IMG/VR virus record: IMGVR_UViG_3300021400_001110
DNA from: a virus
Taxonomy: Duplodnaviria > Heunggongvirae > Uroviricota > Caudoviricetes
Direction: 5' to 3' (one strand)
Length of the DNA stretch: 64,000 nt
The position numbers and the translations under genes are program-made. Below the pieces are notes generated by a model. That model was not told the DNA's origin and made no database searches. It saw nothing but the letters and a program-made list of their open reading frames with translations. Positions 39,204-62,318 of the stretch are shown one piece after another (the stretch's first letter is position 1; each line of letters begins with the position of its first letter).

Positions 39204-39546
39204 ACAAGAATTTTTACAAAAACGAAAGCCTGTATTTGTAGATCCAGAATCTGGACTTGCTACCATAGTAAGTAATCAAAATTTAAAAGATAAGAATTTT
39301 GCGGAAATATTCTCTAATCAAAAGATTTATTGGTTAAATACTATTAGAGGATTTATATGGGAAGATCATTTAATATTATACATAAATGATTATGAGATTC
39401 CAAACTTTGCTATAGGTACCTGTATTTATTTCTTTAATTTCTTTCCAGATATAAAGTGGATTGGACTAGGATGTAATAAGGGATGTCCTGGAGATTTATG
39501 GGAACCTAAATTAAAAGTATATAAATGTGATTTATGTAGTAAGTAA
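39196..39546 (+). CDS. hypothetical protein
   Basis: 116-aa ORF. Confidence 0.4.
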   Translation: MTEQEFLQKRKPVFVDPESGLATIVSNQNLKDKNFAEIFSNQKIYWLNTIRGFIWEDHLILYINDYEIPNFAIGTCIYFFNFFPDIKWIGLGCNKGCPGDLWEPKLKVYKCDLCSK

Positions 39547-41800
39547 TCAAACTTCATTCTTTTCTAAATATACAAGAATCTCTATACAAGAGTCTCTTGA
39601 TATTATAGAGCAATGGGGAAGTATTCAATATGACTCAGAAACTCTTGGTAAAGATGCACATGTAGGTAAACCTCTTTCTGCACAATTTGGCTCTCCTAAG
39701 AAAGATACTCAAATTGTAGTAGATTGGACTACTGTTGATATACGAAACTATAAAAAGGTACTTGAAGAAAAACTTATTGTTGGTCAAAATTTAAAGTTTG
39801 ATTTACAGTGGTTATATAACTATGGAATAATACCTCTAAAGGTATATGATACTATGATAGCTGAGCAACTTATTTATCTAGGATTTCCTCCAGCTGGTAA
39901 GCCAGGAGGAATTTCCTATGCTCTTAATGAAATTGCTATGCGCTATCTTGGAAAGTATATTGACAAGTCTATACGAGGACAAATTATATATAGAGGTCTT
40001 GATGATGAAGTTATAGAGTATGCTGCAAATGATGTTGTAGACTTAGTAGATATAGCTAAGAAACAAATTGAAATTTGTAAGAAACGTAATTGTATGCGTG
40101 CTTTACAAATTGAAATGGATTTCGTTCCAGTTATTGCTTATCTAGAATGGTGTGGAATCAAACTAGATGTTGATAAATGGAAAGCTAAAATGACTAAAGA
40201 TGAAAACAATAGAAGAGAAAGACTTGAAAAGTTAAATCAATTCCTTATTAAATGGTATCAAGATAGAAATGGTAAGGACAATATGATAGGGGTTCCTTAT
40301 GTAATATCATCTTTTAATAATTCTCATATACAAGAACCTCCTCCATCTGCTAAACCTATGTCTCGTCCATATAAGAAAGAAGGAAATATAGATGATTTAT
40401 TTCAAGACTTTTCTATTCCATTCTATATTACAAATAAAAGTGGAAAGATAGTACCATTTATAAAGGTAGACTTACAAGGAGATTTATTTTCTGGATTTAA
40501 TACAAAACCTCAATGTATACTTAATTGGGATAGTTCTGATCAAGTTATTTATTTCTGTCAGTTATTAGGATTTAATACTAAAGTAGAAGATAAGGCTACA
40601 GGAGAAGATAAAGACTCTGTAGTGGAAAAAGCACTCAAAGTACAAAAAGGAATCAATGATGAATTTCTAAAATTGTATTTTGATTATAAGGAAGCATCTA
40701 AAGTGTGTAGCACTTATGGACAAACTTATTTAAATGCTATAAATCCAAATACTGGAAGAATACATACTAACTTTAAACAACTTGGAGCTTCATCAGGTAG
40801 AATGGCTTGTGGAAGTAAACAAAATAATGAAGATTTAGCTAAGCTCAAACACGCAGAGTTATCTAAACTTCCTACTAAACTTAGAAAATGTGGGTATCCA
40901 CAATTACAAAATCTTCCTGCTGACCATGATACTAGAGGAGCATTTGTGCCAGAGAAAGGAAATTTAATGTGCAGTTGTGATTATTCTGCCCTAGAGAGTA
41001 GACTTGGTGCTGATATTTATAATGAACAATCAATGATTGACGAGTATTTATATGGCACTGGAGATATTCATTCCCTTACTGCTAAACATTGTTTTCCTAT
41101 AGAACTGGCTGGTATAGAAGTTAAAGATATTAAAGAAAAAAGACCTGATCTTAGAAGTAGAGCTAAGCCTGTGGAATTTAGTCAACAATTTGGGGGAAGT
41201 GCTAAAGCAATTCAAAATGCTCTTGCTTGTACTAAAGCTGAAGCAGAAGCAATAGCTGAAGCTTATAATAAAGGTTTTTCTGGCATATCCCAATTTAAGG
41301 ATAGAGGATTTAAAGCTGTATGTCAAACTGGATATGTACTTATATGTAAATATACTGGACATAGAACTTATATGCCAGATTGGAAAGAATGGAGAGAAGC
41401 AATGGATGATGAAGAATTCTGGACAAGATATGATTATCTACATGATACTCTCCCTTATAAAGAATTCCTTAAAACCTATGAAGCTCGTAAAGCTTCTGAG
41501 CTTCGTAAAACCTCTTCTAAATGGTCTAGATTAGCCCTCAATTCTCCTACTCAAGGTAGTGGTATTATAATCTTAAAAGATGCTATGGCTAATTTCTTTA
41601 AATGGATTATAGAAAATGGATATTTTAATATTATAAAGATTTGTGATTTAGTTCATGATGAAGCTGTAATTGAATATCCAGAAACTATGCCTGAAGTAGC
41701 TAACATCCTTAAAAATTTTATGGAAGAATCTTCTGCTAAGTTCTGTAAGAAACTGCCTATTCCTGCTGTTCCTGAAGTTGGAGATCATTGGATTCATTAA
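39527..41800 (+). CDS. family-A DNA polymerase with 3'-5' exonuclease domain
   Basis: Exo I YDSETLG, Exo II NLKFDLQWL, Exo III YAANDVVDL; pol motif A DYSALESRL, B RSRAKPVEFSQQFG, C VHDEAV; GTG start. Confidence 0.85.
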   Translation: MIYVVSNQTSFFSKYTRISIQESLDIIEQWGSIQYDSETLGKDAHVGKPLSAQFGSPKKDTQIVVDWTTVDIRNYKKVLEEKLIVGQNLKFDLQWLYNYGIIPLKVYDTMIAEQLIYLGFPPAGKPGGISYALNEIAMRYLGKYIDKSIRGQIIYRGLDDEVIEYAANDVVDLVDIAKKQIEICKKRNCMRALQIEMDFVPVIAYLEWCGIKLDVDKWKAKMTKDENNRRERLEKLNQFLIKWYQDRNGKDNMIGVPYVISSFNNSHIQEPPPSAKPMSRPYKKEGNIDDLFQDFSIPFYITNKSGKIVPFIKVDLQGDLFSGFNTKPQCILNWDSSDQVIYFCQLLGFNTKVEDKATGEDKDSVVEKALKVQKGINDEFLKLYFDYKEASKVCSTYGQTYLNAINPNTGRIHTNFKQLGASSGRMACGSKQNNEDLAKLKHAELSKLPTKLRKCGYPQLQNLPADHDTRGAFVPEKGNLMCSCDYSALESRLGADIYNEQSMIDEYLYGTGDIHSLTAKHCFPIELAGIEVKDIKEKRPDLRSRAKPVEFSQQFGGSAKAIQNALACTKAEAEAIAEAYNKGFSGISQFKDRGFKAVCQTGYVLICKYTGHRTYMPDWKEWREAMDDEEFWTRYDYLHDTLPYKEFLKTYEARKASELRKTSSKWSRLALNSPTQGSGIIILKDAMANFFKWIIENGYFNIIKICDLVHDEAVIEYPETMPEVANILKNFMEESSAKFCKKLPIPAVPEVGDHWIH

Positions 41801-45099: not shown

Positions 45100-45368
45100 A
45101 TTTAAATGTTATGGAAGACTTAAATAAAAAAGAAAATCTAAGTAAAAAAGAAAAACTTGAAGGAATTAAAGGAATTTTAGAAAATGAAGATTTTGGAAGA
45201 ATGTGGATGAAAATGCATACTCCTTGGGTACTTAGAAGTCGTAAAGTAGGACGTAATGAGCTTTGTCCATGTGGTTCTGGAAAGAAGTATAAGAATTGCG
45301 AGTGCTATGCAAAGAAAGATATAGCTAAATACACTTTAGATGAAAAACATACTAAAGGATGGAGATAA
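45093..45368 (+). CDS. SEC-C motif protein
   Basis: C-terminal [14 protein letters not shown] metal-binding motif. Confidence 0.45.
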
Positions 45369-45964
45369 TTAAAAAATATAGTGCCGATATTCCCATTTTC
45401 TTTACTTCTGATACTCATTTTTGCCATTCCAACATTATTAAGTTCTGTGGACGCCCATTTAAAGATGTAAAAGAGATGAATGAGGTTCTTATCAGTAACT
45501 GGAACGAAGTAGTGGGTCCAACTGATATTGTATACCATCTTGGAGATTTTTGTTTTGCGGGTTCTGCTGAATGGCATTCTGTTCTAGGACAACTTAATGG
45601 ACGTATACATCTTATAATTGGAAATCATGATGAAAAGAATTTACGTCAAGGTTATATGAATTTATTTGAAAGTGTTAGTTATCAACAGCATATAGTTATT
45701 GGTCCTAATAATTTCTATTTAAATCATTACCCTTATTTATGTTATCCTGGACATCATTCCCATACATATCAATTGTTTGGGCATGTGCATAGTAGTCCCT
45801 TTAAATTTGAGGGTATAGACTCTGGAAGGATGCAAAATAATATTACTCCAACTCAATATGATGTAGGAGTAGATTGGAACAACTTTAAACCTATAAGTTA
45901 TGAGAAACTTATAAATCGTTTAGAGTATCAAGTTAAAAACAACAAAACTATGTATGAAAAATGA
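45359..45964 (+). CDS. metallophosphoesterase
   Basis: DTHFCH, GDFCF, GNHDE, GHVH motifs. Confidence 0.65.
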
Positions 45965-46109
45965 ATACTTTTTGCGCTTGGGTAGCACTACCTATATTTA
46001 TAAGTGCTGTAGGTTGGTTTATAAGTAAAGAAAATATAGATTATTTAATTGAATTTTTATTAGGAGTGGCTTTCGCTATATTAATATGGATAGCAATAAC
46101 ACTATAACT
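45963..46109 (+). CDS. small membrane protein
   Basis: 48-aa hydrophobic ORF (below the track cutoff), ATGA overlap. Confidence 0.25.
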
Positions 46110-46225
46110 GAAGGGTTTAAACTAGGTTATATAAGAGCCTTAGCTGATGTATTCCATGTATTAATGGATAATATGGATAATGAAGTTCAAGATAAATTAT
46201 TAACAGAATTAAAACTTAAAAAATT

Positions 46226-46798
46226 ATGAATAAAACACTAATTATTGTTGATGCACAGTATGACTTTATGGAGGGAGGAAAGCTTCCTGTAGAAGGAGCA
46301 ACTCAAGCTCTTAATAACATTGTGGAGCTTATTAATACTGGAGAGTATTCTACTATTATCACTACCCAAGATTGGCATAATGGTAAACATTGCTCATTTA
46401 AAGAACAAGGTGGAGATTTTCCAGAACATTGTGTACAGGGTACTTATGGTGCAGATATTTATAAGCCAATAGCTGATGCTATTAAGTTTAAATATCTTAC
46501 TTTTAGTCTTAGAAAGGGACAATGTTTAGAGGAATTCTCAGCATTTAAATCTCCCACTAAAGGTTACAACCATTGGAAAGAATATTATACTACAGACGAT
46601 AATACTCCTTTTATTCAATTCCATGATGAAGAAGTAATTCACATTTGTGGACTTGCAGGGGATATTTGTGTGATGAATACTGCGATAGCATTAAAGGATT
46701 TGCGTCCAGCTATTATAGACAACTGTACAGCATCTCTTAGTGATGATAACTTTAGAAAGTTAGCGGATTTAAATGGTATTAATATTATTGAAGTATGA
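46226..46798 (+). CDS. pncA: nicotinamidase / isochorismatase-family hydrolase (PncA-like)
   Basis: N-terminal IIVDAQYDF; catalytic Cys in ICGLAGDICV; adjacent to pncB. Confidence 0.6.
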   Translation: MNKTLIIVDAQYDFMEGGKLPVEGATQALNNIVELINTGEYSTIITTQDWHNGKHCSFKEQGGDFPEHCVQGTYGADIYKPIADAIKFKYLTFSLRKGQCLEEFSAFKSPTKGYNHWKEYYTTDDNTPFIQFHDEEVIHICGLAGDICVMNTAIALKDLRPAIIDNCTASLSDDNFRKLADLNGINIIEV

Positions 46799-47613
46799 TT
46801 AGAAATCCAGTTTTAGGTTCAATCGCAGGGGACATGATAGGTGTTCCCTACGAGTTTTTAAGACATGGAGTTGCTATTGCTCCTACATTTCCATTATGGT
46901 CAAAAGACTCTCATTTTTCTGATGATTCAGTGATGACTCTTGCAGTAGCTAAATGGTTATTAGAAAGTGAGGATTTTAATTATGAAGTCCTTATTAAATG
47001 TATGCAAGAACTGGGACGTAAGTATCGAGACAGAGGATATGGTAGTAACTTTGGACAATGGTTAGATACTGATAATCCTCAACCTTATGGCTCTTGGGGA
47101 AATGGTGCTGCTATGAGAGTTAGTCCTGTAGGAGTTGCCTTTACAAGAGAAGAAGATGTATCTAAATATGCAGAACTTCAAGCATCTGTATCTCATAACA
47201 GTAAAGAAGGTTATGAAGGAGCAAGAGCTATAGCATTAGCTGTTAGAGCTGCTCTTAGTAACTATAATAAGGATGCTATTTACTCTTTAATTCATGAGAG
47301 GATTCCTTCTTATAGCATAGATCGATCTGCCAAGTTCATTATGGATTCTGGATATACTTTTAAAGTAAGTTGCCAAGAATCTGTACCTGAAGCTCTTTGT
47401 TGCTTCTTCGATAGTAGTTCTTATGAAGAAACTATTCGTAAAGCAATACTCTTAAGAGGGGATACCGATACCCAAGCTGCAATGGCTGGTGGTATTGCTG
47501 CTGCATATTGGGGAATATCTGAAGAAATAGCAGAAGAAGCTAAAAACAGATTACCCCAGGATTTATATGTAATTTTATCTAAATTTAGTAAAAAATATAA
47601 TTTACCACTATGA
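46795..47613 (+). CDS. ADP-ribosylglycohydrolase (ARH/DraG family)
   Basis: N-terminal GSIAGDMIGVPYEF; C-terminal GDTDT metal-site motif. Confidence 0.7.
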   Translation: MIRNPVLGSIAGDMIGVPYEFLRHGVAIAPTFPLWSKDSHFSDDSVMTLAVAKWLLESEDFNYEVLIKCMQELGRKYRDRGYGSNFGQWLDTDNPQPYGSWGNGAAMRVSPVGVAFTREEDVSKYAELQASVSHNSKEGYEGARAIALAVRAALSNYNKDAIYSLIHERIPSYSIDRSAKFIMDSGYTFKVSCQESVPEALCCFFDSSSYEETIRKAILLRGDTDTQAAMAGGIAAAYWGISEEIAEEAKNRLPQDLYVILSKFSKKYNLPL

Positions 47614-48785
47614 TTTTAAGTATCTTAGACACTGATTTATACAAGTTTACAACTTCGTACGCTTATCAAAAACTGTATCCAAATGCGCTTGGAACTTTCG
47701 AATATGTAGACAGAAATAATACTGTCTATGATGAATCTTTCTTAGAATATCTTGAATATGAAATTTCTAAGTTAGGTAATGTTTTTCTTACTACTGAGGA
47801 ATTTTCTAAAGTAGTTTGCAACCCTTGGCTATCTAGATTTATTCCTATTTCTTACTGGGAATGGCTTGGAAGTTTTCGATTTAATCCAGGTCTTATAAGG
47901 ATATGGCTTGATGAAAATGGACATTTACATATTAGAGTTACAGATTATCTTTATAAGGTAACTCTTTATGAAGTTCCAATACTTTATACAGTATCTGAAT
48001 GTTATTATAAATTCTTTAATATACAAGCAGATATAAATTTAATGTATAAGAATTTAGCAGAAAAGATAGAATTTGCTAATAAAGAAAATCTTATTTTCTC
48101 CGAATTTGGAACTAGAAGAAGATACTCTTCTAACATACACGAATTAGTAGTTCAATACTTAAAAGAACACTCAAAGACTTGTGTAGGAACTTCTAATGTT
48201 TATTTTGCTATTAAATACAATATGATGCCTTGTGGTACTTTCCCACATGAATGGGTAATGTTCCATGGGGCAATCTGGGGATATCAACAGGCTAATGAAC
48301 TTGCAATGCGAGATTGGGTACGTTGCTATGATGGGGATTTAGGAACTGTATTGTGTGACACCTATACAACTAAGTTCTTCATTAAACAGTTTTCACGTAA
48401 ATACAGTAAACTATTTGATGGTCCACGTATAGACTCAGGTGATGAAAAGGAATTAGGAGATTTATTTATAGAGCATTATAAGTCTATGAATATTAATCCT
48501 ATGACTAAAACTCTTGTTATGAGTAATGCTCTTGATTTTCCTAAGTTTAAGGAAATTAGAGATTATTTCAAAAATAGAATTAATGTAGTTGCTGGCATTG
48601 GCACTAACCTTACTAATGATTGTGGAGTAATTCCTCTTAATGAGGTAATGAAACTTATTGAAGTTCAAGCTACTATTAATAGTTCTAAGCTTCCTTGTAT
48701 TAAACGTTCAGACGATAAAGGTAAGAGATTAGGTAGTGCTATACAGCAAGATATTTTAGACCACGTTTTATTAGATGCCTCGTAA
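47610..48785 (+). CDS. pncB: nicotinate phosphoribosyltransferase (PncB)
   Basis: N-terminal ILDTDLYKFT signature of NAPRTase; 391 aa. Confidence 0.65.
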   Translation: MILSILDTDLYKFTTSYAYQKLYPNALGTFEYVDRNNTVYDESFLEYLEYEISKLGNVFLTTEEFSKVVCNPWLSRFIPISYWEWLGSFRFNPGLIRIWLDENGHLHIRVTDYLYKVTLYEVPILYTVSECYYKFFNIQADINLMYKNLAEKIEFANKENLIFSEFGTRRRYSSNIHELVVQYLKEHSKTCVGTSNVYFAIKYNMMPCGTFPHEWVMFHGAIWGYQQANELAMRDWVRCYDGDLGTVLCDTYTTKFFIKQFSRKYSKLFDGPRIDSGDEKELGDLFIEHYKSMNINPMTKTLVMSNALDFPKFKEIRDYFKNRINVVAGIGTNLTNDCGVIPLNEVMKLIEVQATINSSKLPCIKRSDDKGKRLGSAIQQDILDHVLLDAS

Positions 48786-49041
48786 AACAATAAAAAAGGT
48801 AGAAAAGGTGGAAATTCCAAAAGGAATTCCACCTAAACCTCGTGAGAAACTAACATCTGGGCAAGAACTTTATTGTTGGTACCCTCCCAATAACACTTAT
48901 CACAAACGTGTTTATATAAAGGATGGAAAAGATCCAGATTGGGTTGTAACACAAGATGAGTCAGGTCAGAAATGGTTAGTTAATATAGAACATTTACATA
49001 ATACAATTTTAACAAAAGAAGAATATGAAAAATTGGGATAA
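48775..49041 (+). CDS. hypothetical protein
   Basis: 88-aa ORF. Confidence 0.35.
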   Translation: MPRKTIKKVEKVEIPKGIPPKPREKLTSGQELYCWYPPNNTYHKRVYIKDGKDPDWVVTQDESGQKWLVNIEHLHNTILTKEEYEKLG

Positions 49042-49849
49042 GTGGATAAATGATGCTGTAACATGTCTACAGGATTATATAAAACAGAATCATTTAAAAA
49101 GTGTAGTTCTTGGACTAAGTGGAGGTATAGATAGCACTGTATCTGCAGTTATATGCCATCTAGCTACTAAGAATATGCCTGATGTAACATTTATTGGTAG
49201 AAGTCTTCCAATTATGAACCCATCTAATGAAAAGAGTATTTCCAAGAAATTGGGAGAAATTCTTTGTGATGATTTTGCAGAGATTGATATGAGAGAATTT
49301 TATCATCCTTGGAGACTTCTTTTTTATGAAGAAGAGGAAGAATCTAAGGCTACTAACATTTCTGATGGCAATCTTATGGCTCGCATGAGAATGATGTATC
49401 TTTATCAATTAGCACATCATTATAAAGGTATAGTTATAGATACAGATAATATGACTGAACATGAACTTGGTTTCTATACTATACATGGTGATGTAGGAGA
49501 CTATAATGTAGGAATCCGTTATCTATGGAAACATGAGATTTGGGACTTAGCCAAAATGCTTAAGGATTATGTTCCAAAAGCCAAAGAAGTTATTCAAGAA
49601 TCTATAAATATGCAACCAACTGATGGTAATTGTGGAGGTACTGACATGGATCAAATAGCTCCTGGAGCTACATATGGAGATGTAGACCTAATTCTTGATT
49701 CTCTTGATAGTAGACTAAAATACAGAGAAGCTATTGATGTTTGTGGATTTGATTTAGTTAAGAGAGTAGAAGACAGAAGTGCTAGAAATGCTTATAAAGA
49801 CAAGCTTCCTATAACTCCTAATATAATGAAGAATTGGTTTAATAAATAA
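49025..49849 (+). CDS. nadE: NH3-dependent NAD+ synthetase NadE
   Basis: PP-loop LGLSGGIDST; 274 aa. Confidence 0.8.
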   Translation: MKNWDKWINDAVTCLQDYIKQNHLKSVVLGLSGGIDSTVSAVICHLATKNMPDVTFIGRSLPIMNPSNEKSISKKLGEILCDDFAEIDMREFYHPWRLLFYEEEEESKATNISDGNLMARMRMMYLYQLAHHYKGIVIDTDNMTEHELGFYTIHGDVGDYNVGIRYLWKHEIWDLAKMLKDYVPKAKEVIQESINMQPTDGNCGGTDMDQIAPGATYGDVDLILDSLDSRLKYREAIDVCGFDLVKRVEDRSARNAYKDKLPITPNIMKNWFNK

Positions 49850-49855
49850 TAAAAT

Positions 49856-50380
49856 ATGAAAGTAGCTTTTTATCTAGGTTCATTTAATCCTCCACATTAT
49901 GGACATCTTACTGTTATAAATGATGGGGTACATCAATTTGGGATGGATAAGGTAGTAGTAGTTCCTGCTATGCATAATCCTACTAAAAAAGAAAAACCTG
50001 CACCGTTTGATATTAGATGTAGTTGGATGGAAAGAATCGCAAAACAATTTGGAGACAATGTAGAAGTGGATAGAATTGAGGAATTAATGATTCCTCCTTT
50101 CTATTCCTATGCTACATTACATGCTCTAAGAACAAAGTATTGTAATGATGAGACTTATCTTCTTGTTGGAGAAGACTTAGTAAAAGAAATAGAAGATTGG
50201 ATGAATGGTGGGCAAATTCTAAAAGATTGGGATCTTCTAGTTGTAAATAGGCCTGATGGAGCATTATCATCAAGCTTATATAGAAAATGTCCAACTTTAT
50301 TTAATATGTTTATTCCCGAAATTATTAGGGACGAAGTTTATTATTATTTTAATGAACATGGAAAAGAATTGGAGTTATAA
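49856..50380 (+). CDS. nadD: nicotinate/nicotinamide-nucleotide adenylyltransferase (NadD/NMNAT)
   Basis: GSFNPPHYGH ((H/T)xGH nucleotidyltransferase motif). Confidence 0.75.
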   Translation: MKVAFYLGSFNPPHYGHLTVINDGVHQFGMDKVVVVPAMHNPTKKEKPAPFDIRCSWMERIAKQFGDNVEVDRIEELMIPPFYSYATLHALRTKYCNDETYLLVGEDLVKEIEDWMNGGQILKDWDLLVVNRPDGALSSSLYRKCPTLFNMFIPEIIRDEVYYYFNEHGKELEL

Positions 50381-51017
50381 AATTCCTGACGGTCCTCACG
50401 CAGGGACTACATTATGGAGTGGAAGATACTGTGCTGTAGCAGCATTTGTGTTTAGGCGTATAGATGGTATATGGTCAGTTCTAGCCAATCTTCGTGGTTC
50501 TGGTACACCAGACTATCAAGGTTGTTGGAACGCAGTGTGTGGCTTCCTAGAGGCCAATGAGACTGCTCAACAAGGTTGTTCACGAGAAATTTTTGAAGAA
50601 ACTGGATATGAAATAAAACCAGAAAAATTTTTACAAGTTTATACTCAGACCGATCCAGAGACTTCAAATAACGGTAATGTTACTTTAAGACATATTGCTA
50701 TATTCTTTGAACATGAGTTGGGTACTCCAAAGAATCCTGAGGGAGGAGAAGAACATGAAGTGGATGCAATTAAATGGATTCCTATTGATCAAATTCATAT
50801 GTATAAATGGGCATTTAATCATGAGCTAACTTTAAAAATCCTATTTAATGATTATATAGTTCCTTTGTGTAGTAGTCGTCCACTTAGTAAAGGAGAATTC
50901 TTTATGTTATCTCAAACTGAATGGTTAAATAATAATCCTATGGTTAAATACCTTCTTAAAAATAAAATTCTTAATACATTTGAAATAAATGATTTATATC
51001 GACAATCTTATCGCTGA
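50352..51017 (+). CDS. Nudix hydrolase
   Basis: Nudix box GFLEANETAQQGCSREIFEETGY; start moved to ATG 50352 from track 50256. Confidence 0.75.
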   Translation: MNMEKNWSYKIPDGPHAGTTLWSGRYCAVAAFVFRRIDGIWSVLANLRGSGTPDYQGCWNAVCGFLEANETAQQGCSREIFEETGYEIKPEKFLQVYTQTDPETSNNGNVTLRHIAIFFEHELGTPKNPEGGEEHEVDAIKWIPIDQIHMYKWAFNHELTLKILFNDYIVPLCSSRPLSKGEFFMLSQTEWLNNNPMVKYLLKNKILNTFEINDLYRQSYR

Positions 51018-51426
51018 GGCTCGTAAAGAGCAGAATCCAATCAAGTTAGAAGCTTATAAACAAGTTAAGCAGGAATTTGTCCTTAGAAAAACTAAGGGTG
51101 AAGACATTAACTCTAATACAGAAGTTGCAGTACTAAAGAAACTTGTTGGACATTATTCAGATCAAGCACAGCTATATCAAATTAATGGAAGAGAAGAAAT
51201 AGCAAATGAGTATAAAGCATATGCTAATGAACTCAAGAAACTTCTTCCAGAAATGATGTCTGTACAGGAGATAGAAACTCATGTTGATTATATTATTGCT
51301 AAGAATTTCAATGGCATGCCCACAAAGAAAGACATGGGTAAAATTATTAAGATGTTTAAAGAGAGCTACTCTAATGCAGATGGAGCTGCTTTAGCTAATG
51401 TTGTTAAAAGTCATATATTTGTATGA
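50989..51426 (+). CDS. GatB/YqeY domain protein
   Basis: C-terminal KDMGKIIKMFKE...ADGAALANVVKSHI matches the YqeY domain. Confidence 0.55.
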   Translation: MIYIDNLIAEARKEQNPIKLEAYKQVKQEFVLRKTKGEDINSNTEVAVLKKLVGHYSDQAQLYQINGREEIANEYKAYANELKKLLPEMMSVQEIETHVDYIIAKNFNGMPTKKDMGKIIKMFKESYSNADGAALANVVKSHIFV

Positions 51427-51995
51427 TTATAGGAATAGCTGGCAAAGCACAGGCAGGTAAAGATACTACTGCTATGATGCTGCAAACTTTACTTACTAAT
51501 CCTAACATTACATGGGATATGTATTGGCACTCTGATCATCCATTTGAATGGGATCATTTTGTCGTGCATTATGCCGATTTACTGAAAGAAGTATCTAAGG
51601 AAATGCTTGATATGCCTTTTGATAACTTTAATAGTCAAGAGGTTAAACAAATGCATCTTGATTGGCTTGGAATGACTGTCAGAGAATTTTTACAAAAGTT
51701 AGGTACTGCAGTTAGAAAGGAGATAGATCCAGAATTTTGGGTAAAAGCACTATTTAATACTTATCAAAATGGTAATATTATAATAGCTGATGTGCGTTTC
51801 CCAAATGAAGCTGAAGCTATAAAAGCTAGAGGTGGAAAATTAATTAGGATAGAACGTCCTGGTGCAGGAGCAGGAAATCATATCAGTGAAACTGCACTTG
51901 ATGATTATCATGGATGGGATATAGTTATTGATAATGTTGGTACATTGGAAGATCTATTTAATGTAGTCAAATTTCATGTACATAACAGTTTATAA
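51423..51995 (+). CDS. deoxynucleoside monophosphate kinase (T4 gp1-like)
   Basis: P-loop IGIAGKAQAGKDT; 190 aa. Confidence 0.5.
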   Translation: MIIGIAGKAQAGKDTTAMMLQTLLTNPNITWDMYWHSDHPFEWDHFVVHYADLLKEVSKEMLDMPFDNFNSQEVKQMHLDWLGMTVREFLQKLGTAVRKEIDPEFWVKALFNTYQNGNIIIADVRFPNEAEAIKARGGKLIRIERPGAGAGNHISETALDDYHGWDIVIDNVGTLEDLFNVVKFHVHNSL

Positions 51996-52041
51996 AAAGT
52001 ATAGGGGAGCTCGGTAATCGGGCTCCCCTATTTTTTTTTTA
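51995..52041. terminator. bidirectional rho-independent terminator between convergent modules
   Basis: ggggagc..gctcccc hairpin flanked by an A-run (5') and T10 (3'). Confidence 0.6.
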
Positions 52042-55000
52042 CTCTTGGGCTTTTTTCCAAGCATTGTAAGTATCTTTCCCAGCACGTGCAACTGCGAAAT
52101 TTCCCATAAATGCATCTGGTAAACTTTTTCTTCCTGTAGCTACTTTAAGAGCATCTTGAGCAACTTTAAGATTAACTTCATACATTGGAGAAGCTGTATT
52201 ATCTCCAAGCCAATCTTTAAAGTTAAGTGGACCTCTGAATGAGTCATAAGAACGAGAACCAGCTTTATAAAATATTTCAGTAGCTAAATTAGCTAATACT
52301 GGATTATTTTTCATTTCTTTCTTATAATCTTTATAAGCAGGATCTAAAGCAAACTTAAATGCTATAAACATTAATAATGTAACTAACATATCACTAATTA
52401 ATTTAGCTAAATTAGCTCTTACTGTAGGATTAGCAGTTATATATTCTTTCATTGCCTGTAATCCTCCATCCTTCGTAATATAATATAAATCTCTCATAGT
52501 ATAAGCAATTCCTTGTACTATGGTTGGAACATTATGATAGAGAGGCATTCCAGTATCTACTGTGGTAATTCCTCCATTTTCATCTAAGAAAAGAAGATTA
52601 CCAGCCTCGTCTGTCTACTATTCCATATTAGAACGATTTGCTATATATTTACCAGGCTTCATAAAGTAATTATTCCAAATACCATTCATCCAAGTAGTAT
52701 ACATACCAAAGAACCACATAATAGTAGTGTGTTCTCCCATAGACTTAAGAGATTTATCATATGCACCGTAGATATTATCAGCTACTTCTTTTATAGCAAG
52801 AATTTCTCTATCTGAGTAAGGGGCAGGTAAGAAAGTTTCTGCTGTTTCAGGATTTAAATCTATTTGGCTTTCAGGGTGTTCAGCATTCCATTCACGAGCT
52901 TTAGACATATATAAAGCTTTCGCCTATTTATACTCAGTAGAATCCTTTGAAGTTCCATCTACCAAGGCTTTAAATCTCTTATCCTTTTTCCAATTATATG
53001 TAAGAATATCGTCATTAAGTTCCCATCCTTCCCAACATCCATCTTTCATACAACGAGCAACAAACAAAGTCATACGATTTAAAAAGTCTGGTCTACGAAG
53101 AGTTGCATATGCCCAATTTTTGTAATTAGCAATACCTCCTCTACCAATACGTAATGATTCCATACTAGCAAGGTCTATATTAGAAAGACGATATTTAGCT
53201 TGAAGAGCACTTAACATACTAATATTCATCGTATTAGTCATACCATGAGTTATAGTATAAGCATATGCTTGACTAAGAGTTTTAGCATCTATATCTGTAT
53301 TTAACTTAGTAACTGTTCTCATAAAGTTTTCTTCAAATCCTTGGAATACATCACGGAAGAAAGAGATCATATTACCTCCAAGATTCATAAGAGTAACTTT
53401 ACTTCTTACCCCTGCTAATGCTCCAGTAAGTACTTGTCCAGTTTCACTTTTTATAGTTGTATTAAATACATTAACTTTTAAAAAGTCTCTAATATACTGA
53501 ATTTCTCTTTTCATTATATCAGAATTACCAGATTCTTCTCCCATTAGAGTAAGTTGGAAAAGTAAAGAACGAGTACCTACCATAAAATCCTTTAATTTAG
53601 TACATTCTATATTCTTAGATAGATATTCAATAAGAATAGTTTCTACGTTTGTTTCAAAGAATTCCACTCCATTATCATCAATATATTTCTAACGAGTTCC
53701 AGCTTCTTTTCCTGTCTCATCTCCTATCTAGAACATATTAATTACTCTTCCTAACTTTTCCTTATCTGCAGCTAAGCCTTGATTTATAAGTTTTCTTTCT
53801 TCCTCTGTAAGATTCTCAATTTGGTCGTCATAATATTGCTTAGGATTTTGAATAATTTTCCACATACGAGCAGCCCTTCCCTTCCAAGTTGATGCTTCTA
53901 GGTTTTGCATAACTTTAGTAGAATTGGAAGCTCTCATAAGTGGACACCATAAATATTTATGTCCTCCAGCTCTATTCTATATAAAATCAAGTACTTTAGG
54001 ATCATTATAACTTCCTAAATTAAGAACATCCCCTCCATTCCTTATTATATAGAACTACCATAAAGCTTTCTTAAGAAATTCCTATTCAGCTGAATCAAGA
54101 CTTTCATCTGTCCAAGGATTTTTAAACTTCATTGTTCTTCTTCCTTGTTCATCAAGTTCAAATAGATTCTTAAATATATTTACTTCATCTCCAAGAGTTG
54201 CATTTCTAGTCATTCCATAACCCTTAGCATCTAAGAATTCTTTTATGAACTTTCTCATATTTTTAGCATGATATTGCTCAATTTCAGTTGCTATACTATT
54301 ATAAGTTTGAGCTAAATTATCAGTTACTATACGAATATTTTGATTAGGAATATGATTTGTAGTAGACATATGTCTGTATATGTCAGTTAGTTCTTTCTCA
54401 TAATTAAGAGTTTCTCCATTATAATGATGATAAGCTTCTGAAATAGCTCTATATAAACGACAAACTTGCTAGTCCCTTATAGAGCCTATCTAACCTCTAG
54501 CCATTCTTGCTATGTCTTCAAATTTATAAGATGGAAGGATACAAGCAAGTTCTGACTAAAAAGCTTCTAATAATTCTTTTAGAAGTTTTGTTTTCTCATA
54601 AGCTTTATCACTCTCCATAAGACTTGCTAACTAAGCAAATTTATCTGGAGAATATCTCATAATTTCGCTTTCACTTCTATTATTAACTAAAAGCCCATAT
54701 TCGTACATTACAGACTCTAATGGATCAACAAATTGTTCAGATTTAAGAGCTCTGAAATTATTAACAAAACCAAGTTCTTTATTAGCATCATTAACTGTTG
54801 TAATAACTTCTGGAAGTATATTTTTTGTAATACTGCTTATACTATAATTTCTAGAAGTACCTGTATGGCTAAGTACTTTAACTCTTCCAAGTTGTACATT
54901 ATCCATATCCTTCATAGTAGGTAATATCTGATTAAGTAGCACTACTGCTCTTATAACCTCAGCATTACCATAGTCACCTCTTAAGGTATTTGTCTGTACA

Positions 55001-56700
55001 TCGGTCTTATAAGCACCTAACAGATTATGTCTTCCTTTACCGAAGGGTATTTCAGCATTACAATCAAAAGCAGATAAAGAAATTATATCAAGCTATCCTG
55101 TATCATTGTTCTACATTAGAATAATATTATAATCGAGAAGTTCGTCACGCAGTTTCCATTTATATACAGGAGTTTTATTACCCTTTGTATCTATAGTCCA
55201 ATCAACATCATTAAAGTAAGTATCCAGCATAGTTTTAATAAAACTTCTTGATGAAGATAGTCCTTTTAATTTGTCTATTACATCAGATTCAGGAACAAAT
55301 ACTCCTTTTTCTCCTATTTGATTCATTTTATGAATGGCCTCTTTAAGAGTATGTACAGTTTGAAGAGTTTCGTCTTGTATTTCTCCTAAATGTTCTATCA
55401 CTATATCAAGTATATCCTAATTATTATTTTTATTTTTATTAGATTTAGGTCTGTAAGATTTCCCATCTATAATCACTTCCCATCGTCCTTTATCATCATT
55501 TACTTCTCTGATTACAAGAGGTTCAGCTTCTCCAGCTTCAGGAGCACGTTTAATCATTTCAATTGCAGAACGATGAGTTCCTTCACTTCTCATATTTAAT
55601 ATAGGGAAGATGTGCTGGAATATTTCATCAGCCTTGTCAAAAGTCTCTATAGTAACCTTAGGAATATTAACATTACTGCGAATAAAGTGTCTAGCATGTT
55701 TATCATACTATTCTAGTAAATAATTACCACTAGTACTTACAGAAATATTCTGAGGAGCCCCTACTGTTATCTTTTTAAGATCAGCACCATCATAGTCCAT
55801 TTTAACTGGAACTATATTAAGTTCTATATTTTTAATAGGAATACCATTATAAGCAAGCATTTGCTTAAGAAAAGCCATACCATAGTTATATTTCTTCCAC
55901 TTATCTTTAGACCATAGATTCATAGGTTTCTAAGATGCTTTGAAATTATATATATGTAAAGTACCTGATGAATCAACAGATAGATAATCAATATGACCTA
56001 CAAGTTCCTTTCCAAGGGCTTCTACTTGTGCTTTAAGTCCAACATTACCTATAATAACTGGATTTACCTAGGTACGATAAATATATTGGTCAACAAAGTG
56101 TTCCATCTATCCTTTAAAATCTTCAAGAAGGGCAGTTCGTCCATCAAATACAGTATCTTTAATAATTCCAGATATAGCATCTATATATTCAGAATTTTTA
56201 GTTTTAGTAGAAATTGCTCCATAGCCATCAGCAATTCTGTGAAGTATTACAGAATCTTTCTTAAATTGATCCATATTAGCTAAGTCTTTATCTACTTCAG
56301 TTGTTGCTTGTTCTTCTGAATAACCATTCTTTTTAAGATTCTCTATCTCATTTGCTCTAAATTCTTCTTTATTAAATGGACGTACTAAAGGAATTCCATC
56401 TATGAGACAAGCAGGATCCTCTATAAATTCTTGATAAGATAAAGTATTTCCATCTCCTCCCAATTCATCATCATATGTAGATACTGTACGTGCGGCAGTT
56501 ACTATATAATCATGTTTAATTTCTCCTATTTTAGTAATAATAGAATCTTTAAAGGGGTCTTTAGAATATACTATATCATTTATAGAGGCTTTTTCTTCAG
56601 TATCTAAAACTTCTGCAAACTACTTATCCACATATCTAAGCAGTTCCAGTAGAGAAAGCCCTGTTTCTCCATTTACTATATCATATGTACAATTTTTCAT
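52039..56700 (-). CDS. late gene L1, ~1553 aa, TAG read as a sense codon (function unassigned; probably virion/structural module)
   Basis: All minus-strand ORF fragments 52039..56463 share one frame and are separated only by TAG ('cta' on + strand at 52615-17, 52618-20, 52924-26, 53689-91, 53728-30, 54055-57, 54082-84, 56620-22). ATG 56698-700, TAA 52039-41; no in-frame TAA/TGA. Confidence 0.7.
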
Positions 56701-61987: not shown

Positions 61988-62318
61988 TATATAAGCCTTA
62001 TCAATATCCGTTTTACCTTTTATTTTTCAATAAAAGACTGACTATATCATCACTCATTATTGAGTGCCTCCCACTTCGGAATTTTTTCCTACTCCCTTCC
62101 GGGATAGTCGATGAACTTTCGTCCTTATAAAATTATACATACTAGTTTATATGTAATAATTTTATCTAGGATGCTTAGCTGCGGATTGTCCAATTTCTTT
62201 ACCTTTTTACTTTACCTCAAATAGTTACTTTGAGCCTTTAGATGTATTTCTACTCTAAATTAGTAGTAAAGAACTCTAAGGAGTTTCCCGCAATTCAAGA
62301 GGTTTAATGACTACAATA
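61988..62318 (-). other. 331-bp non-coding gap inside the late operon (small hairpins; candidate promoter or small RNA)
   Basis: No frame is open under either the standard or TAG-as-sense code; cccGGAAggg and cUUCGg-type hairpins on the transcribed strand. Confidence 0.3.

What the first reader, a model, noticed from the sequence alone, without database searches (positions are those of the whole stretch)
46226..50380. Complete four-step Preiss-Handler NAD+ salvage pathway encoded as a tight phage gene cluster
Consecutive overlapping genes encode the full deamidated route from nicotinamide to NAD+. They are PncA-like nicotinamidase (catalytic Cys motif), PncB (LDTDLYKF), NadD (HxGH motif GSFNPPHYGH) and NadE (PP-loop SGGIDS). 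Known phage NAD-reconstitution systems use shorter amidated routes, namely Nampt+Nmnat or Adps+Namat. A phage carrying the whole PncA-PncB-NadD-NadE route would be a distinct third strategy. It would rebuild NAD+ from the nicotinamide released by NAD-depleting defences such as TIR, SIR2 and SEFIR effectors.
Basis: partly seen in the sequence, partly recalled or inferred. Interest (0 to 1): 0.8.

Follow-up and report, generated by a model that had tools for sequence, protein, structure and literature searches.

The report
Phage-encoded four-step NAD+ salvage gene cluster
A large crAss-like gut phage carries apparently intact genes for all four enzymes that turn nicotinamide back into NAD+, plus two ADP-ribose-processing enzymes; the cluster is real and common in related phages, but similar clusters were already reported in gut phages in 2024 and its role in infection is untested.

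Summary
Window 46226-50380 encodes PncA, PncB, NadE and NadD with intact catalytic motifs. The genes are under purifying selection and sit in the replication/nucleotide-metabolism block of a crAss-like phage that recodes TAG in its late genes.

The gene order is PncA-ARH-PncB-orf88-NadE-NadD. An ARH3-like ADP-ribosylglycohydrolase (46795-47613) and an 88-aa lineage-specific protein (48775-49041) lie between the enzymes. A Nudix hydrolase of the ADP-ribose-binding NrtR/NadM clade follows directly (50358-51017).

PncA-PncB-NadE-NadD-Nudix recurs in the same order in 65 of the 80 best PncB-bearing IMG/VR loci. In Bacteroidota genomes, which hold the closest cellular PncB (51-56% identity), the genes are dispersed. 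The module therefore looks phage-assembled.

"A distinct third strategy" is outdated. NARP3 (PnuC+NadR) was published in 2026. A 2024 study described pncB-nadD-nadE clusters in gut jumbo phages of Bacteroidota and proposed counter-defence. A cultured Sinorhizobium jumbo phage carries an analogous cluster.

Enzymatic function is well supported. The anti-defence role is inferred only.

Verdict: a new member of a known, experimentally untested kind; moderate interest.

The parts
46226..46798 (+). PncA-type nicotinamidase, 190 aa (nicotinamide -> nicotinate + NH3)
   Evidence: Pfam Isochorismatase 1.5e-12. All top PDB sequence hits are nicotinamidases. D9/K97/C148 and D49/H51/H55/H68 align with Mtb PncA D8/K96/C138 and D49/H51/H57/H71; the triad and three of the four metal ligands are invariant among aligned residues, and H55 is kept in 51 of 56. 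The AF2 model has pLDDT 96.5, and its top 15 Foldseek PDB hits are nicotinamidases. dN/dS is 0.12-0.28.
46795..47613 (+).
   Evidence: Pfam ADP_ribosyl_GH 4.7e-42. The best PDB hits are ARH3, E = 1.6e-20. Metal and catalytic motifs (D43 D44, GNG, S-H134, GDTDT 222-226) are invariant, apart from the middle T224, in 121 homologues. ATGA overlaps join it to both neighbours. It is absent from L001 and sits beside NrdD in a related phage.
47610..48785 (+). PncB nicotinate phosphoribosyltransferase, 391 aa (nicotinate + PRPP -> NaMN)
   Evidence: TIGR01514 scores 344 bits, above the 269.6 cut-off. Pfam NAPRTase_N and NAPRTase both match. Match to PDB 2IM5 (deposited as nicotinate phosphoribosyltransferase), E = 3.6e-93, full length. 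dN/dS is about 0.1. The nearest cellular homologues are Bacteroides/Phocaeicola at 51-56% identity.
48775..49041 (+). orf88: conserved small protein of unknown function (basic tail plus SH3/Tudor-like beta-barrel)
   Evidence: No Pfam, NCBIfam or PHROG hit. Only close relatives exist (>=62% identity), all in this phage lineage. The AF2 model has pLDDT 65 and a 5-strand barrel; Foldseek hits are generic Tudor/SH3 domains. dN/dS is 0.08-0.28.
49025..49849 (+). NadE, NH3-dependent NAD+ synthetase, 274 aa (NaAD + NH3 + ATP -> NAD+)
   Evidence: TIGR00552 scores 115, above the 63.7 cut-off. The top PDB hits are NH3-dependent NAD synthetases, and there is no glutaminase domain. The SGGxDS PP-loop is invariant in 63 of 63.
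49856..50380 (+). NadD-type nicotinate-mononucleotide adenylyltransferase, 174 aa (NaMN + ATP -> NaAD)
   Evidence: TIGR00482 scores 102, below the 112.45 cut-off. The top PDB hits are NaMN adenylyltransferases, e.g. 1KAM at 3.9e-15. H14xGH17 is invariant in 52 of 52. The C-terminal SSSLYR (SxxxxR) motif is present.
50358..51017 (+). Nudix hydrolase, 219 aa; probably an ADP-ribose pyrophosphatase (NrtR/NadM-Nudix clade)
   Evidence: Pfam NUDIX 3.9e-15. The Nudix box GX5EX7REUXEEXGU is invariant in all 51 aligned sequences, and a Pro 16 residues downstream is kept in 52 of 53. The profile's best PDB hits are 2FML and 3GZ5/6/8, with NadM-Nudix 2QJT at 1.3e-8. It co-occurs with the four enzymes in 65 of 80 loci. 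The start at 50358 matches the gene call in the ENA record.
45359..46229 (+). Upstream translationally coupled genes: a metallophosphoesterase (45359-45964) and two mini-ORFs (45961-46107, a hydrophobic 48-aa peptide; 46086-46229, 47 aa)
   Evidence: phrog_547 phosphoesterase 1e-52. The nearest PDB entry is a hypothetical protein. The mini-ORFs are listed and also called in the ENA record. The metallophosphoesterase is conserved upstream in 63 of 80 loci. Its function in the module is unknown.
50989..51995 (+). Downstream coupled genes: YqeY-like protein (50989-51426) and deoxynucleotide monophosphate kinase (51423-51995)
   Evidence: Pfam YqeY 3e-16 and DNMK 8.1e-19. They are conserved downstream in 64 and 39 of 80 loci respectively.
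52001..52031 (.). Strong hairpin terminator ending the + strand transcription unit, where it converges with the - strand late genes
   Evidence: 14-bp stem with 8 GC pairs, followed by a T-run.

Best explanation
The cluster is a working, phage-encoded deamidating NAD+ salvage pathway.

Pathway steps:
1. PncA hydrolyses nicotinamide to nicotinate and ammonia.
2. PncB joins nicotinate to PRPP to give NaMN.
3. NadD adenylates NaMN to NaAD.
4. The ammonia-dependent NadE amidates NaAD to NAD+.

The adjoining Nudix enzyme most likely splits ADP-ribose, the other product of NAD+ cleavage, into AMP and ribose-5-phosphate. Host PRPP synthetase can return the ribose-5-phosphate to PRPP. In this sub-lineage an ARH3-like glycohydrolase probably liberates free ADP-ribose from ADP-ribose conjugates or derivatives.

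The genes are translationally coupled. They sit in the standard-code replication/nucleotide-metabolism block of a crAss-like phage of Bacteroidota, which I read as an early/middle block. Their products would therefore be made before the TAG-recoded late genes.

The net effect is to hold up or rebuild the NAD+ pool of the infected cell. The most likely selective benefit is tolerance of NAD+ depletion, whether caused by host NADase defences or by infection itself.

Shown here: gene presence, family membership, intact catalytic residues, purifying selection, conservation of the five-gene module, and its phage-specific assembly. Inferred: every enzymatic activity, the substrates of Nudix and ARH, the timing of expression, and the counter-defence benefit.
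For: -
- PncA active-site and metal-site residues match M. tuberculosis PncA and are near-invariant. Its structure model has nicotinamidases as nearest neighbours.
- HxGH, SGGxDS and the Nudix box are invariant across about 50-60 unique homologues. ARH motifs are invariant in 121 homologues.
- dN/dS is 0.08-0.36 for all seven genes against six related contigs.
- All four enzymes plus Nudix occur on one strand, in the same order, in 65 of the 80 best PncB-bearing IMG/VR loci.
- A human-gut phage scaffold, MT835470, has the same order at 31-54% identity.
- In the 80 closest bacterial PncB loci (mostly Bacteroidota), PncA lies within 8 kb in 4, NadD in 5 and NadE in 1. The module is therefore phage-assembled.
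- An analogous NadE-PncB-Nudix-NMNAT-PncA-like cluster exists in the unrelated cultured Sinorhizobium phage Phosso.
- Overlapping start and stop codons and a single terminator after 51995 point to one transcription unit.
- Precedent: phage NAD+ pathways NARP1/2 and NARP3 counter NADase defences. A counter-defence role was proposed for jumbo-phage NAD clusters.
Against: - There are no biochemical or genetic data for any of these proteins.
- NadD scores slightly below the NCBIfam equivalog cut-off, and PncA far below its own.
- NaMN versus NMN specificity of NadD, and NaAD versus NaMN specificity of NadE, cannot be read from sequence.
- The surrounding genes are ordinary nucleotide-metabolism genes (ThyX, dUTPase, NrdD, DNMK). 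No known anti-defence or ADP-ribosyltransferase domain was found in the + strand block. Context therefore does not favour defence evasion over a housekeeping boost.
- ARH is missing from one close relative (L001) and sits elsewhere in another phage. Its coupling to the pathway is loose.
- The route costs PRPP and up to three ATP per NAD+, which is more than the Nampt route.
- Clearing nicotinamide could relieve product inhibition of sirtuin-type NADases (general knowledge of yeast Pnc1/Sir2), which would work against the phage.
- No PRPP synthetase gene was found in the window.
Confidence: 0.6

Rival explanations
1. The cluster is a general auxiliary metabolic module with no specific role against defence. 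It raises NAD(P) supply for the phage's own heavy nucleotide and DNA metabolism in an anaerobic, nicotinate-rich gut environment, or it compensates for shut-off of host gene expression.
For: The cluster is embedded among ThyX, dUTPase, dCTP deaminase-like, NrdD, DNMK and PNKP genes in one long co-directional block. No anti-defence or ART/macro/TIR/SIR2 domain lies nearby. The module is stable across a large phage clade, as a core metabolic trait would be. The 2024 study also suggested complementarity with host NAD pathways.
Against: The phage ligase is ATP-dependent, and no obvious NAD+-consuming phage enzyme was found in the window. The linked ADP-ribose-clade Nudix, and ARH in this lineage, fit recycling of NAD+ cleavage products better than simple biosynthesis. 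All three experimentally tested phage NAD pathways turned out to counter NADase defences. The two roles are not mutually exclusive.
Confidence: 0.3
2. The same enzymes act in a different order, following the Francisella-type route. NadE would act as an NMN synthetase (NaMN -> NMN), and the NadD-like enzyme would adenylate NMN to NAD+.
For: The NadE-family entry 3FIU is among the top PDB matches (3.7e-16, against 3.6e-18 for the best hit), so sequence does not discriminate. That 3FIU is the Francisella tularensis NMN synthetase is my recollection, not shown by the tool. In the genome nadE precedes nadD. NadD is short (174 aa) and below the NaMNAT equivalog cut-off.
Against: The best NadD matches are NaMN-preferring bacterial NadD enzymes. 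The best NadE matches are ordinary NaAD-using enzymes. The net pathway and its biological meaning would be unchanged.
Confidence: 0.1
3. The ARH3-like and Nudix proteins are not part of NAD+ salvage. Instead they reverse or detoxify host ADP-ribosylation of phage DNA, RNA or proteins, or they remove NAD caps, and they merely sit next to the salvage genes.
For: ARH-family domains in phages are rare and have been argued to prefer macromolecular ADP-ribose adducts (PMC9503650). The position of ARH varies: it is beside NrdD in a relative and absent in L001. Nudix substrate range cannot be fixed from sequence.
Against: Nudix co-occurs with the four enzymes in every one of the 65 complete loci, and also in the unrelated phages Phosso and Atu_ph07. 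Its closest solved relatives are 2FML and 3GZ5/6/8, which I recall as ADP-ribose-binding NrtR-family regulators of NAD metabolism, and the NadM-Nudix fusion enzyme of NAD salvage.
Confidence: 0.2
4. The genes are decayed or inactive homologues, or the region is bacterial DNA misassembled with phage DNA.
For: PncA and NadD score below the NCBIfam equivalog cut-offs.
Against: All ORFs are intact in every related contig, with dN/dS of 0.08-0.36. Catalytic residues are invariant. The same arrangement appears on an independent ENA contig and on dozens of viral contigs of 90-195 kb. GC content and strand skew are uniform across the region.
Confidence: 0.03

Closest known systems
Preiss-Handler NAD+ biosynthetic gene clusters of gut 'NAD-jumbo phages' (e.g. 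Kuafu_71: pncB-nadD-nadE; Microbiome 2024, PMC11662467)
   Same: PncB, NadD and NadE are phage-encoded and physically clustered. The predicted hosts are Bacteroidota and the habitat is the gut. A role against NAD+-depleting defence is proposed. All evidence is computational.
   Different: This window comes from a crAss-like lineage whose related contigs are 53-195 kb, below the 200-kb jumbo threshold. The cluster also includes PncA as the entry step from nicotinamide. The main text of that paper does not describe the conserved Nudix, the ARH3-like gene or orf88. I could not compare sequences, because that paper's genomes and supplements are not held.
NARP2 (Nampt + Nmnat; Vibrio phage KVP40 NadV/NatV type)
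   Same: It starts from nicotinamide and uses PRPP and ATP to rebuild NAD+. A Nudix ADP-ribose pyrophosphatase domain is commonly associated, as in NadM-Nudix.
   Different: NARP2 is an amidated two-step route through NMN. Here the phosphoribosyltransferase is a nicotinate-specific PncB equivalog rather than Nampt. The route needs a nicotinamidase and a final amidation, making four steps, and its intermediates are nicotinate, NaMN and NaAD.
NARP1 (Adps + Namat)
   Same: Both deal with the two NADase products, nicotinamide and ADP-ribose.
   Different: NARP1 pyrophosphorylates ADP-ribose and ligates nicotinamide to it directly. Here no PRPS-like Adps was found, and ADP-ribose is presumably broken down by Nudix rather than re-used intact.
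NARP3 (PnuC-like transporter + NadR-like enzyme; Sci Adv 2026, PMC13464706)
   Same: It is a phage-encoded NAD+-restoring pathway built from host-type salvage genes.
   Different: NARP3 imports nicotinamide riboside and has two genes. No transporter or NadR homologue was found in this window.
Bacterial PncA-PncB-NadD-NadE deamidating salvage (Preiss-Handler pathway with nicotinamidase)
   Same: The four enzyme families and the catalytic residues are the same. PncB matches PDB entry 2IM5 at E = 3.6e-93 over its full length, and the nearest cellular PncB homologues are Bacteroidota at 51-56% identity.
   Different: In the 80 closest bacterial loci the genes are scattered. The phage has joined them into one overlapping operon together with a Nudix gene. 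Phage PncA forms a divergent clade seen almost only on phage-sized metagenomic contigs.
NadE-PncB-Nudix-NMNAT-'hydrolase' cluster of the cultured Sinorhizobium phage Phosso (PV764938) and the PncA-like/ADPR-pyrophosphatase/PncB neighbourhood of Agrobacterium phage Atu_ph07
   Same: The same five functions lie within about 5.6 kb of a phage genome.
   Different: The phage lineage and host phylum are unrelated, identity is only 23-27%, and the gene order differs. The genes are annotated one by one and no paper held in the library discusses them as a pathway.

Membership tests
Nicotinamidase (PncA) within the isochorismatase-like hydrolases | Asp-Lys-Cys catalytic triad, plus the Asp/His/His(/His) metal site that separates nicotinamidases from other family members | tested here: met
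   D9/K97/C148 and D49/H51/H55/H68 align with Mtb D8/K96/C138 and D49/H51/H57/H71. The triad and three of the four metal ligands are invariant among aligned residues; H55 is kept in 51 of 56. The Zn ligands align with P. horikoshii 1ILW.
Nicotinamidase (PncA) within the isochorismatase-like hydrolases | Fold closest to solved nicotinamidases rather than to isochorismatases or carbamoylsarcosine amidases | tested here: met
   AF2 pLDDT is 96.5. Foldseek PDB ranks 1-15 are all nicotinamidases/pyrazinamidases, and the first other enzyme appears at rank 16.
Nicotinamidase (PncA) within the isochorismatase-like hydrolases | Score above the curated equivalog cut-off (NF008623) | tested here: not met
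   54.5 bits against a cut-off of 174. The protein is a divergent, phage-specific clade.
Nicotinate phosphoribosyltransferase (PncB) | Full-length match above the curated equivalog cut-off, with both NAPRTase domains | tested here: met
   TIGR01514 scores 344.1 against 269.55. Pfam NAPRTase_N and NAPRTase both match. Match to 2IM5 at E = 3.6e-93 over 375 residues, including the conserved PHEW segment.
NaMN adenylyltransferase (NadD) | (H/T)xGH motif and C-terminal SxxxxR motif of the nucleotidyltransferase superfamily; equivalog score | tested here: inconclusive
   H14xGH17 is invariant and SSSLYR is present. The best PDB hits are NadD enzymes. TIGR00482 scores 102, below the 112.45 cut-off. 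NaMN versus NMN preference cannot be tested.
NH3-dependent NAD+ synthetase (NadE) | SGGxDS PP-loop, single synthetase domain without a glutaminase domain, score above the cut-off | tested here: met
   TIGR00552 scores 115.2 against 63.65. SGGIDS is invariant in 63 of 63. The 274-aa protein aligns end to end with NH3-dependent enzymes.
ADP-ribose pyrophosphatase-type Nudix hydrolase | Intact Nudix box, plus the downstream proline reported as common to ADP-ribose diphosphatases (Dunn 1999, cited in PMC5389931) | tested here: met
   The box is invariant in all 51 aligned sequences, and Pro at +16 is kept in 52 of 53. The nearest solved relatives are 2FML, 3GZ5/6/8 and NadM-Nudix. The marker is suggestive rather than decisive, and the substrate is untested.
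ARH3-like ADP-ribosylglycohydrolase | Binuclear metal-site acidic residues (DD and GDTDT motifs) and the T/S-H motif | tested here: met
   D43 D44, S133-H134, D223, D225 and T226 are invariant in 121 sequences. The best PDB matches are ARH3.
Phage Preiss-Handler NAD+ cluster (as in PMC11662467) | pncB, nadD and nadE clustered on a phage genome | tested here: met
   All three lie within 2.8 kb on a phage contig. The same holds in 65 of 80 related viral loci.
NARP1 | PRPS-like Adps plus the nicotinamide ADP-ribose transferase Namat | tested here: not met
   No PRPS-like domain was found among 92 + strand ORFs. The only PRTase is a PncB equivalog. Only this 64-kb window was examined.
NARP2 | Nampt (nicotinamide PRTase) plus an NMN adenylyltransferase | tested here: not met
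   The PRTase matches only nicotinate-PRTase models. The presence of PncA and NadE indicates the deamidated route.
NARP3 | PnuC-like transporter plus bifunctional NadR-like enzyme | tested here: not met
   No such Pfam or NCBIfam hits occur in the window. The best NadR-model hit of NadD has E = 2.7e-6, far below the cut-off.
Anti-defence NAD+ reconstitution pathway (functional class) | Restores NAD+ and phage replication in cells with NADase defence systems | not testable with these tools
   This needs expression and infection experiments.
Crassvirales / crAss-like phages (Zeta-like group) | Hallmark structural and transcription genes; large genome; stop-codon recoding in late genes; introns | tested here: inconclusive
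   The best PolA hits are all Crassvirales, at up to 51% identity. TAG is recoded in the - strand genes. A group I intron is present. Related contigs of 163-195 kb match the 145-192 kb range given for the Zeta group. TerL and MCP are not in the window, and the large late proteins have no PHROG hit.

The most novel reading that the evidence does not exclude
The module would be a fourth, mechanistically distinct phage NAD+ reconstitution pathway. crAss-like phages would have assembled it from dispersed Bacteroidota genes, and it would counter NADase immunity by recycling both cleavage products. Nicotinamide would pass through the deamidated PncA-PncB-NadD-NadE route. ADP-ribose would pass through the Nudix enzyme to ribose-5-phosphate and PRPP. 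In this sub-lineage the ARH3-like glycohydrolase would add a second layer by cleaving ribose-ribose-linked cyclic ADP-ribose immune signals (2'cADPR, 3'cADPR) or other ADP-ribose derivatives to feed the same pathway. That would be analogous to the recently described RyDEP glycosidase, but with an unrelated fold.
Probability: 0.15. Interest if true: 0.8.

Novelty: new member of a known kind. Interest (0 to 1): 0.45.

Why it matters
NAD+ depletion is a common endpoint of bacterial antiviral immunity. Three phage pathways that rebuild NAD+ have been shown experimentally, and none uses the deamidated route.

This cluster shows that a large, widespread group of crAss-like gut phages carries the whole nicotinamide-to-NAD+ route plus ADP-ribose-processing enzymes as one conserved operon. 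The phages assembled it themselves.

If it proves functional, it would extend the NAD+ arms race to Bacteroidota and their dominant phages. It would also supply a compact five-gene cassette for engineering, and it would bear on nicotinate/nicotinamide flux in the gut.

The idea is not new. A 2024 metagenomic survey reported pncB-nadD-nadE clusters in gut jumbo phages. The value added here is the complete anatomy, the evidence of conservation and phage-specific assembly, the ARH and Nudix partners, and a cultured phage (Phosso) in which the idea could be tested.

Tried and rejected
- Megablast of the cluster against 50,697 phage records found nothing. Relatives appear only at protein level.
- PHROG searches of the large recoded late proteins gave no hits, so crAss membership rests mainly on PolA.
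- orf88 has no family hit and only close lineage relatives. Its medium-confidence model gave generic SH3/Tudor matches, so no function is assigned.
I used the last job on PncA instead.
- The supplementary tables of the 2024 jumbo-phage paper are not held. I could not check whether pncA, Nudix or ARH are listed there, or whether this phage belongs to their 'Kuafu' clade.
- The sigma-70 promoter scan found fewer sites than shuffled controls (38 against 51.6). It is uninformative for a Bacteroidota phage.
- The Rfam scan found no riboswitch or regulatory RNA near the cluster.
- The upstream metallophosphoesterase was considered as an ADP-ribose-derivative phosphatase. Its only clear PDB relative is a hypothetical protein, so the idea was dropped.
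- I considered that the Nudix protein might be an NrtR-like transcription factor. It keeps an intact catalytic box and most homologues lack any C-terminal DNA-binding domain. The roughly 50-aa tail in this sub-lineage has no Pfam hit. I rejected the idea as the main reading.
- I considered capture of a host operon. It was rejected because bacterial PncB loci lack the neighbouring genes.

Full report
**What is in the sequence**

The interval 46226-50380 lies in a 52-kb block in which 92 + strand ORFs cover 98% of the DNA.

| Gene | Coordinates | Length |
|---|---|---|
| PncA-like | 46226-46798 | 190 aa |
| ADP-ribosylglycohydrolase (ARH) | 46795-47613 | 272 aa |
| PncB | 47610-48785 | 391 aa |
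| orf88 (unknown) | 48775-49041 | 88 aa |
| NadE | 49025-49849 | 274 aa |
| NadD | 49856-50380 | 174 aa |
| Nudix hydrolase | 50358-51017 | 219 aa |
| YqeY-like | 50989-51426 | 145 aa |
| Deoxynucleotide monophosphate kinase (DNMK) | 51423-51995 | 190 aa |

- Neighbouring genes overlap by 4-29 nt or are 6 nt apart.
- Upstream, a metallophosphoesterase (45359-45964) and two mini-ORFs are joined to PncA by further overlaps.
- A 14-bp GC-rich hairpin with a T-run at 52001-52031 ends the unit where it meets the converging - strand genes.
- An independent ENA contig carries the identical arrangement with the same gene calls.

**It is a phage**

- DNA polymerase A (39527-41800) has its best matches in Crassvirales phages of Bacteroides, at up to 51% identity.
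- The block also encodes DnaB, primase, helicases, an ATP-dependent ligase, RNA ligase plus PNKP, NrdD, ThyX, dUTPase and a sigma-70 factor.
- The - strand genes at 52039-64000 are broken by 58 in-frame TAG codons and no other stops. They become ORFs of 1553, 922, 856 and more than 559 aa if TAG is read as sense.
- TAG ends only 4 of the 92 + strand genes.
- A group I intron lies at 62018-62334.
- Related IMG/VR contigs measure 53-195 kb. Contigs of 163-195 kb fit the 145-192 kb 'Zeta' group of crAss-like phages, which recode stops in late genes and are rich in introns (PMC7886860).
- I could not test the hallmark structural genes, so I call the window 'crAss-like'.

**Are the enzymes real?**

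- **PncB.** It passes the curated NAPRTase equivalog cut-off (344 against 269.6 bits). It matches PDB entry 2IM5 over its full length at E = 3.6e-93.
- **NadE.** It passes its cut-off (115 against 63.7). It aligns end to end with single-domain NH3-dependent synthetases.
- **NadD.** It falls just short of the cut-off (102 against 112.45). Its best solved relatives are all NaMN adenylyltransferases. It keeps HxGH and a C-terminal SSSLYR motif.
- **PncA.** This is the weakest by HMM score (54.5 against 174), so I tested it at residue and fold level.
  - D9/K97/C148 and D49/H51/H55/H68 align with the M. tuberculosis catalytic triad D8/K96/C138 and metal ligands D49/H51/H57/H71.
  - These residues are near-invariant across 56 unique phage homologues.
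  - The same zinc ligands align with P. horikoshii PncA in the HMMER output.
  - An AlphaFold model built from 43 homologues has pLDDT 96.5.
  - Its 15 best PDB neighbours are all nicotinamidases, from archaea to yeast and Drosophila. Other isochorismatase-like hydrolases come only after these.

All seven genes are intact in six related contigs at 54-93% amino-acid identity. Their dN/dS against the window is 0.08-0.36.

**The two overlooked enzymes**

The ARH protein is closest to ARH3 (E = 1.6e-20). Its DD, GNG, S-H and GDTDT motifs are essentially invariant in 121 homologues. It is absent from the closest relative, L001. In another related phage a 59%-identical copy sits next to NrdD instead. 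ARH is therefore a common gene of this phage group whose link to the NAD cluster is lineage-specific.

The Nudix protein keeps a perfect Nudix box. A proline 16 residues downstream is conserved in 52 of 53 homologues. A downstream proline is the marker Dunn et al. associated with ADP-ribose diphosphatases (PMC5389931). A profile of 14 diverse homologues finds 2FML and 3GZ5/3GZ6/3GZ8 as best solved relatives, with the NadM-Nudix fusion 2QJT at 1.3e-8. I recall 2FML and 3GZ5/6/8 as NrtR-type, ADP-ribose-binding Nudix proteins that regulate NAD metabolism; the PDB labels say only 'MutT/nudix family protein'. The intact catalytic box, and the lack of a DNA-binding domain in most homologues, argue for an enzyme rather than a regulator. 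ADP-ribose is the most likely substrate, but this is inference.

**Distribution and origin**

- A scan of IMG/VR with a PncB alignment gave 268 confirmed stretches. I analysed the best 80.
- PncA lies within 10 kb in 76, NadE in 72, Nudix in 72 and NadD in 68.
- All four enzymes plus Nudix occur together in 65 of the 80, always on one strand and in the order PncA-PncB-NadE-NadD-Nudix. Most exceptions are short contigs, loci cut off at a contig end, or very large (about 400 kb) phages.
- ARH and orf88 occur only in the window's own sub-lineage.
- A human faecal phage scaffold (MT835470) has the same order at 31-54% identity. A 735-kb megaphage has PncB, NadE and PncA within 8 kb.
- The nearest cellular PncB sequences are all Bacteroidota (Bacteroides, Phocaeicola, Alistipes and MAGs labelled as rumen Bacteroidales) at 51-56% identity.
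- In those 80 bacterial loci PncA is nearby in 4, NadD in 5 and NadE in 1.
- The operon therefore looks assembled in phages rather than captured whole.
- The cultured Sinorhizobium jumbo phage Phosso carries NadE, PncB, a Nudix, an NMN adenylyltransferase and a PncA-like 'hydrolase' within 5.6 kb. Agrobacterium phage Atu_ph07 has a PncA-like gene, an ADP-ribose pyrophosphatase and PncB together.
- The same functional set thus recurs in unrelated phages at 23-27% identity and in a different gene order, which suggests independent assembly.

**How it most likely works**

Shown: the genes, their family membership, intact active sites, selection, and conservation of the module.

Inferred:
1. Nicotinamide is deamidated by PncA.
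2. Nicotinate is phosphoribosylated by PncB using host PRPP.
3. NaMN is adenylated by NadD.
4. NaAD is amidated by NadE. The ammonia released in step 1 balances the ammonia consumed here.
5. Nudix would hydrolyse ADP-ribose to AMP and ribose-5-phosphate. This removes a reactive by-product and returns carbon to PRPP through host Prs.
6. ARH would release ADP-ribose from conjugates or derivatives.

The cluster uses the standard genetic code and lies in the replication block. It is presumably expressed before the TAG-recoded late genes.

The benefit is either resistance to NAD+ depletion by host NADases or a general boost of NAD supply. The two are not exclusive. I lean towards the former for two reasons. 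The experimentally tested phage NAD+ pathways NARP1, NARP2 and NARP3 are all reported to counter NAD+-depleting defences. The linked ADP-ribose enzymes also fit recycling of cleavage products. The local context gives no independent support, however. No ART, macro, TIR or SIR2 domain was found in the window's + strand genes, and the neighbours are nucleotide-metabolism genes.

**Comparison with what is known**

That premise is out of date.

- NARP3 (PnuC-like transporter plus NadR-like enzyme) was published in August 2026 (PMC13464706).
- A 2024 survey of animal-gut jumbo phages reported 174 phages with complete salvage or Preiss-Handler pathways. It named a pncB-nadD-nadE gene cluster in 'Kuafu_71' and placed the Kuafu clade on Bacteroidota hosts. 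It mentioned phage-encoded pncA and proposed that such clusters counter Sir2-type NAD+ depletion (PMC11662467).

On the other side, the NARP papers do not mention the deamidated route. The 2022 census of viral NAD+/ADP-ribose systems lists only NadV, NadM and NadR as phage NAD-synthesis enzymes. No held paper links crAss-like phages with nicotinate phosphoribosyltransferase.

The window is thus a further, better-resolved instance of a kind already noted computationally and never tested. It adds:
- the nicotinamidase entry step;
- the conserved Nudix partner;
- the ARH insertion;
- evidence that the operon is phage-assembled and widespread in crAss-like phages.

**Verdict**

Novelty: a new member of a known kind. 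Interest is moderate at 0.45. The finding is a solid lead for a fourth NAD+ reconstitution pathway in abundant gut phages, but it has been foreshadowed in print and rests on inference for function.

Noticed in passing
window 52039-64000, - strand: The late genes are readable only if TAG is a sense codon. There are 58 in-frame TAGs and no in-frame TAA or TGA. This gives ORFs of 1553, 922, 856 and more than 559 aa. No tRNA gene, and so no suppressor tRNA, is present in the window. TAG ends only 4 of the 92 + strand genes.
   Followed up: partly
window 62018-62334, - strand: A group I intron (Rfam RF00028, 70 bits) lies between the two large recoded ORFs 63998-62322 and 62026-59261. These are probably exons of one very large late gene, possibly the crAss-type virion RNA polymerase. 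They have no PHROG hit.
   Followed up: partly
window 21324-24528, + strand: The anaerobic ribonucleotide reductase NrdD is split. 21324-23132 covers Pfam NRDD positions 10-414 and 23962-24528 covers 415-560. An HNH homing-endonuclease ORF (23295-24056) lies between them. This looks like an intron-type insertion that Rfam did not detect.
   Followed up: partly
window 34496-35341, + strand: The phage encodes a full-length sigma-70 family factor, with regions 1.2, 2, 3 and 4 all matched.
   Followed up: no
window 32748-34130 and 36931-37827, + strand: An RNA ligase (phrog_968) and a polynucleotide kinase-phosphatase lie close together. This is the classic tRNA-repair pair used against anticodon nucleases, and it is a possible counter-defence function unrelated to NAD.
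   Followed up: no
window 45961-46229, + strand: Two mini-ORFs are translationally coupled between the metallophosphoesterase and PncA. One is a 48-aa hydrophobic, probably membrane-spanning peptide and the other is a 47-aa protein. Both are also called in an independent ENA assembly. Their function is unknown.
   Followed up: partly
window 52001-52031: A very strong hairpin (14-bp stem, 8 GC pairs) followed by a T-run sits exactly at the point where the + strand block and the - strand late block converge. It may act as a bidirectional terminator.
   Followed up: no
L174 (Sinorhizobium phage Phosso PV764938, 268773-274414) and L009 (Agrobacterium phage Atu_ph07): Cultured jumbo phages of Rhizobiaceae carry analogous NadE/PncB/Nudix/NMNAT/PncA-like gene sets. 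The genes are annotated one by one and no held paper discusses them as a pathway. These phages could serve as an experimental system.
   Followed up: partly
L112 (ONIZ01000001.1, 410-kb contig labelled 'uncultured Firmicutes bacterium RUG343'): This is the only 'bacterial' locus with PncA, PncB and NadE together. Its size and gene content resemble the roughly 400-kb IMG/VR phage contigs L078 and L080. It may be a megaphage contig binned as a bacterium.
   Followed up: no
window 50358-51017, residues about 160-219 of the Nudix protein: The window's sub-lineage has a roughly 50-residue C-terminal extension after the conserved WAFNH motif. All other lineages lack it. It has no Pfam hit, and it overlaps the start of the YqeY gene by 29 nt.
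   Followed up: partly
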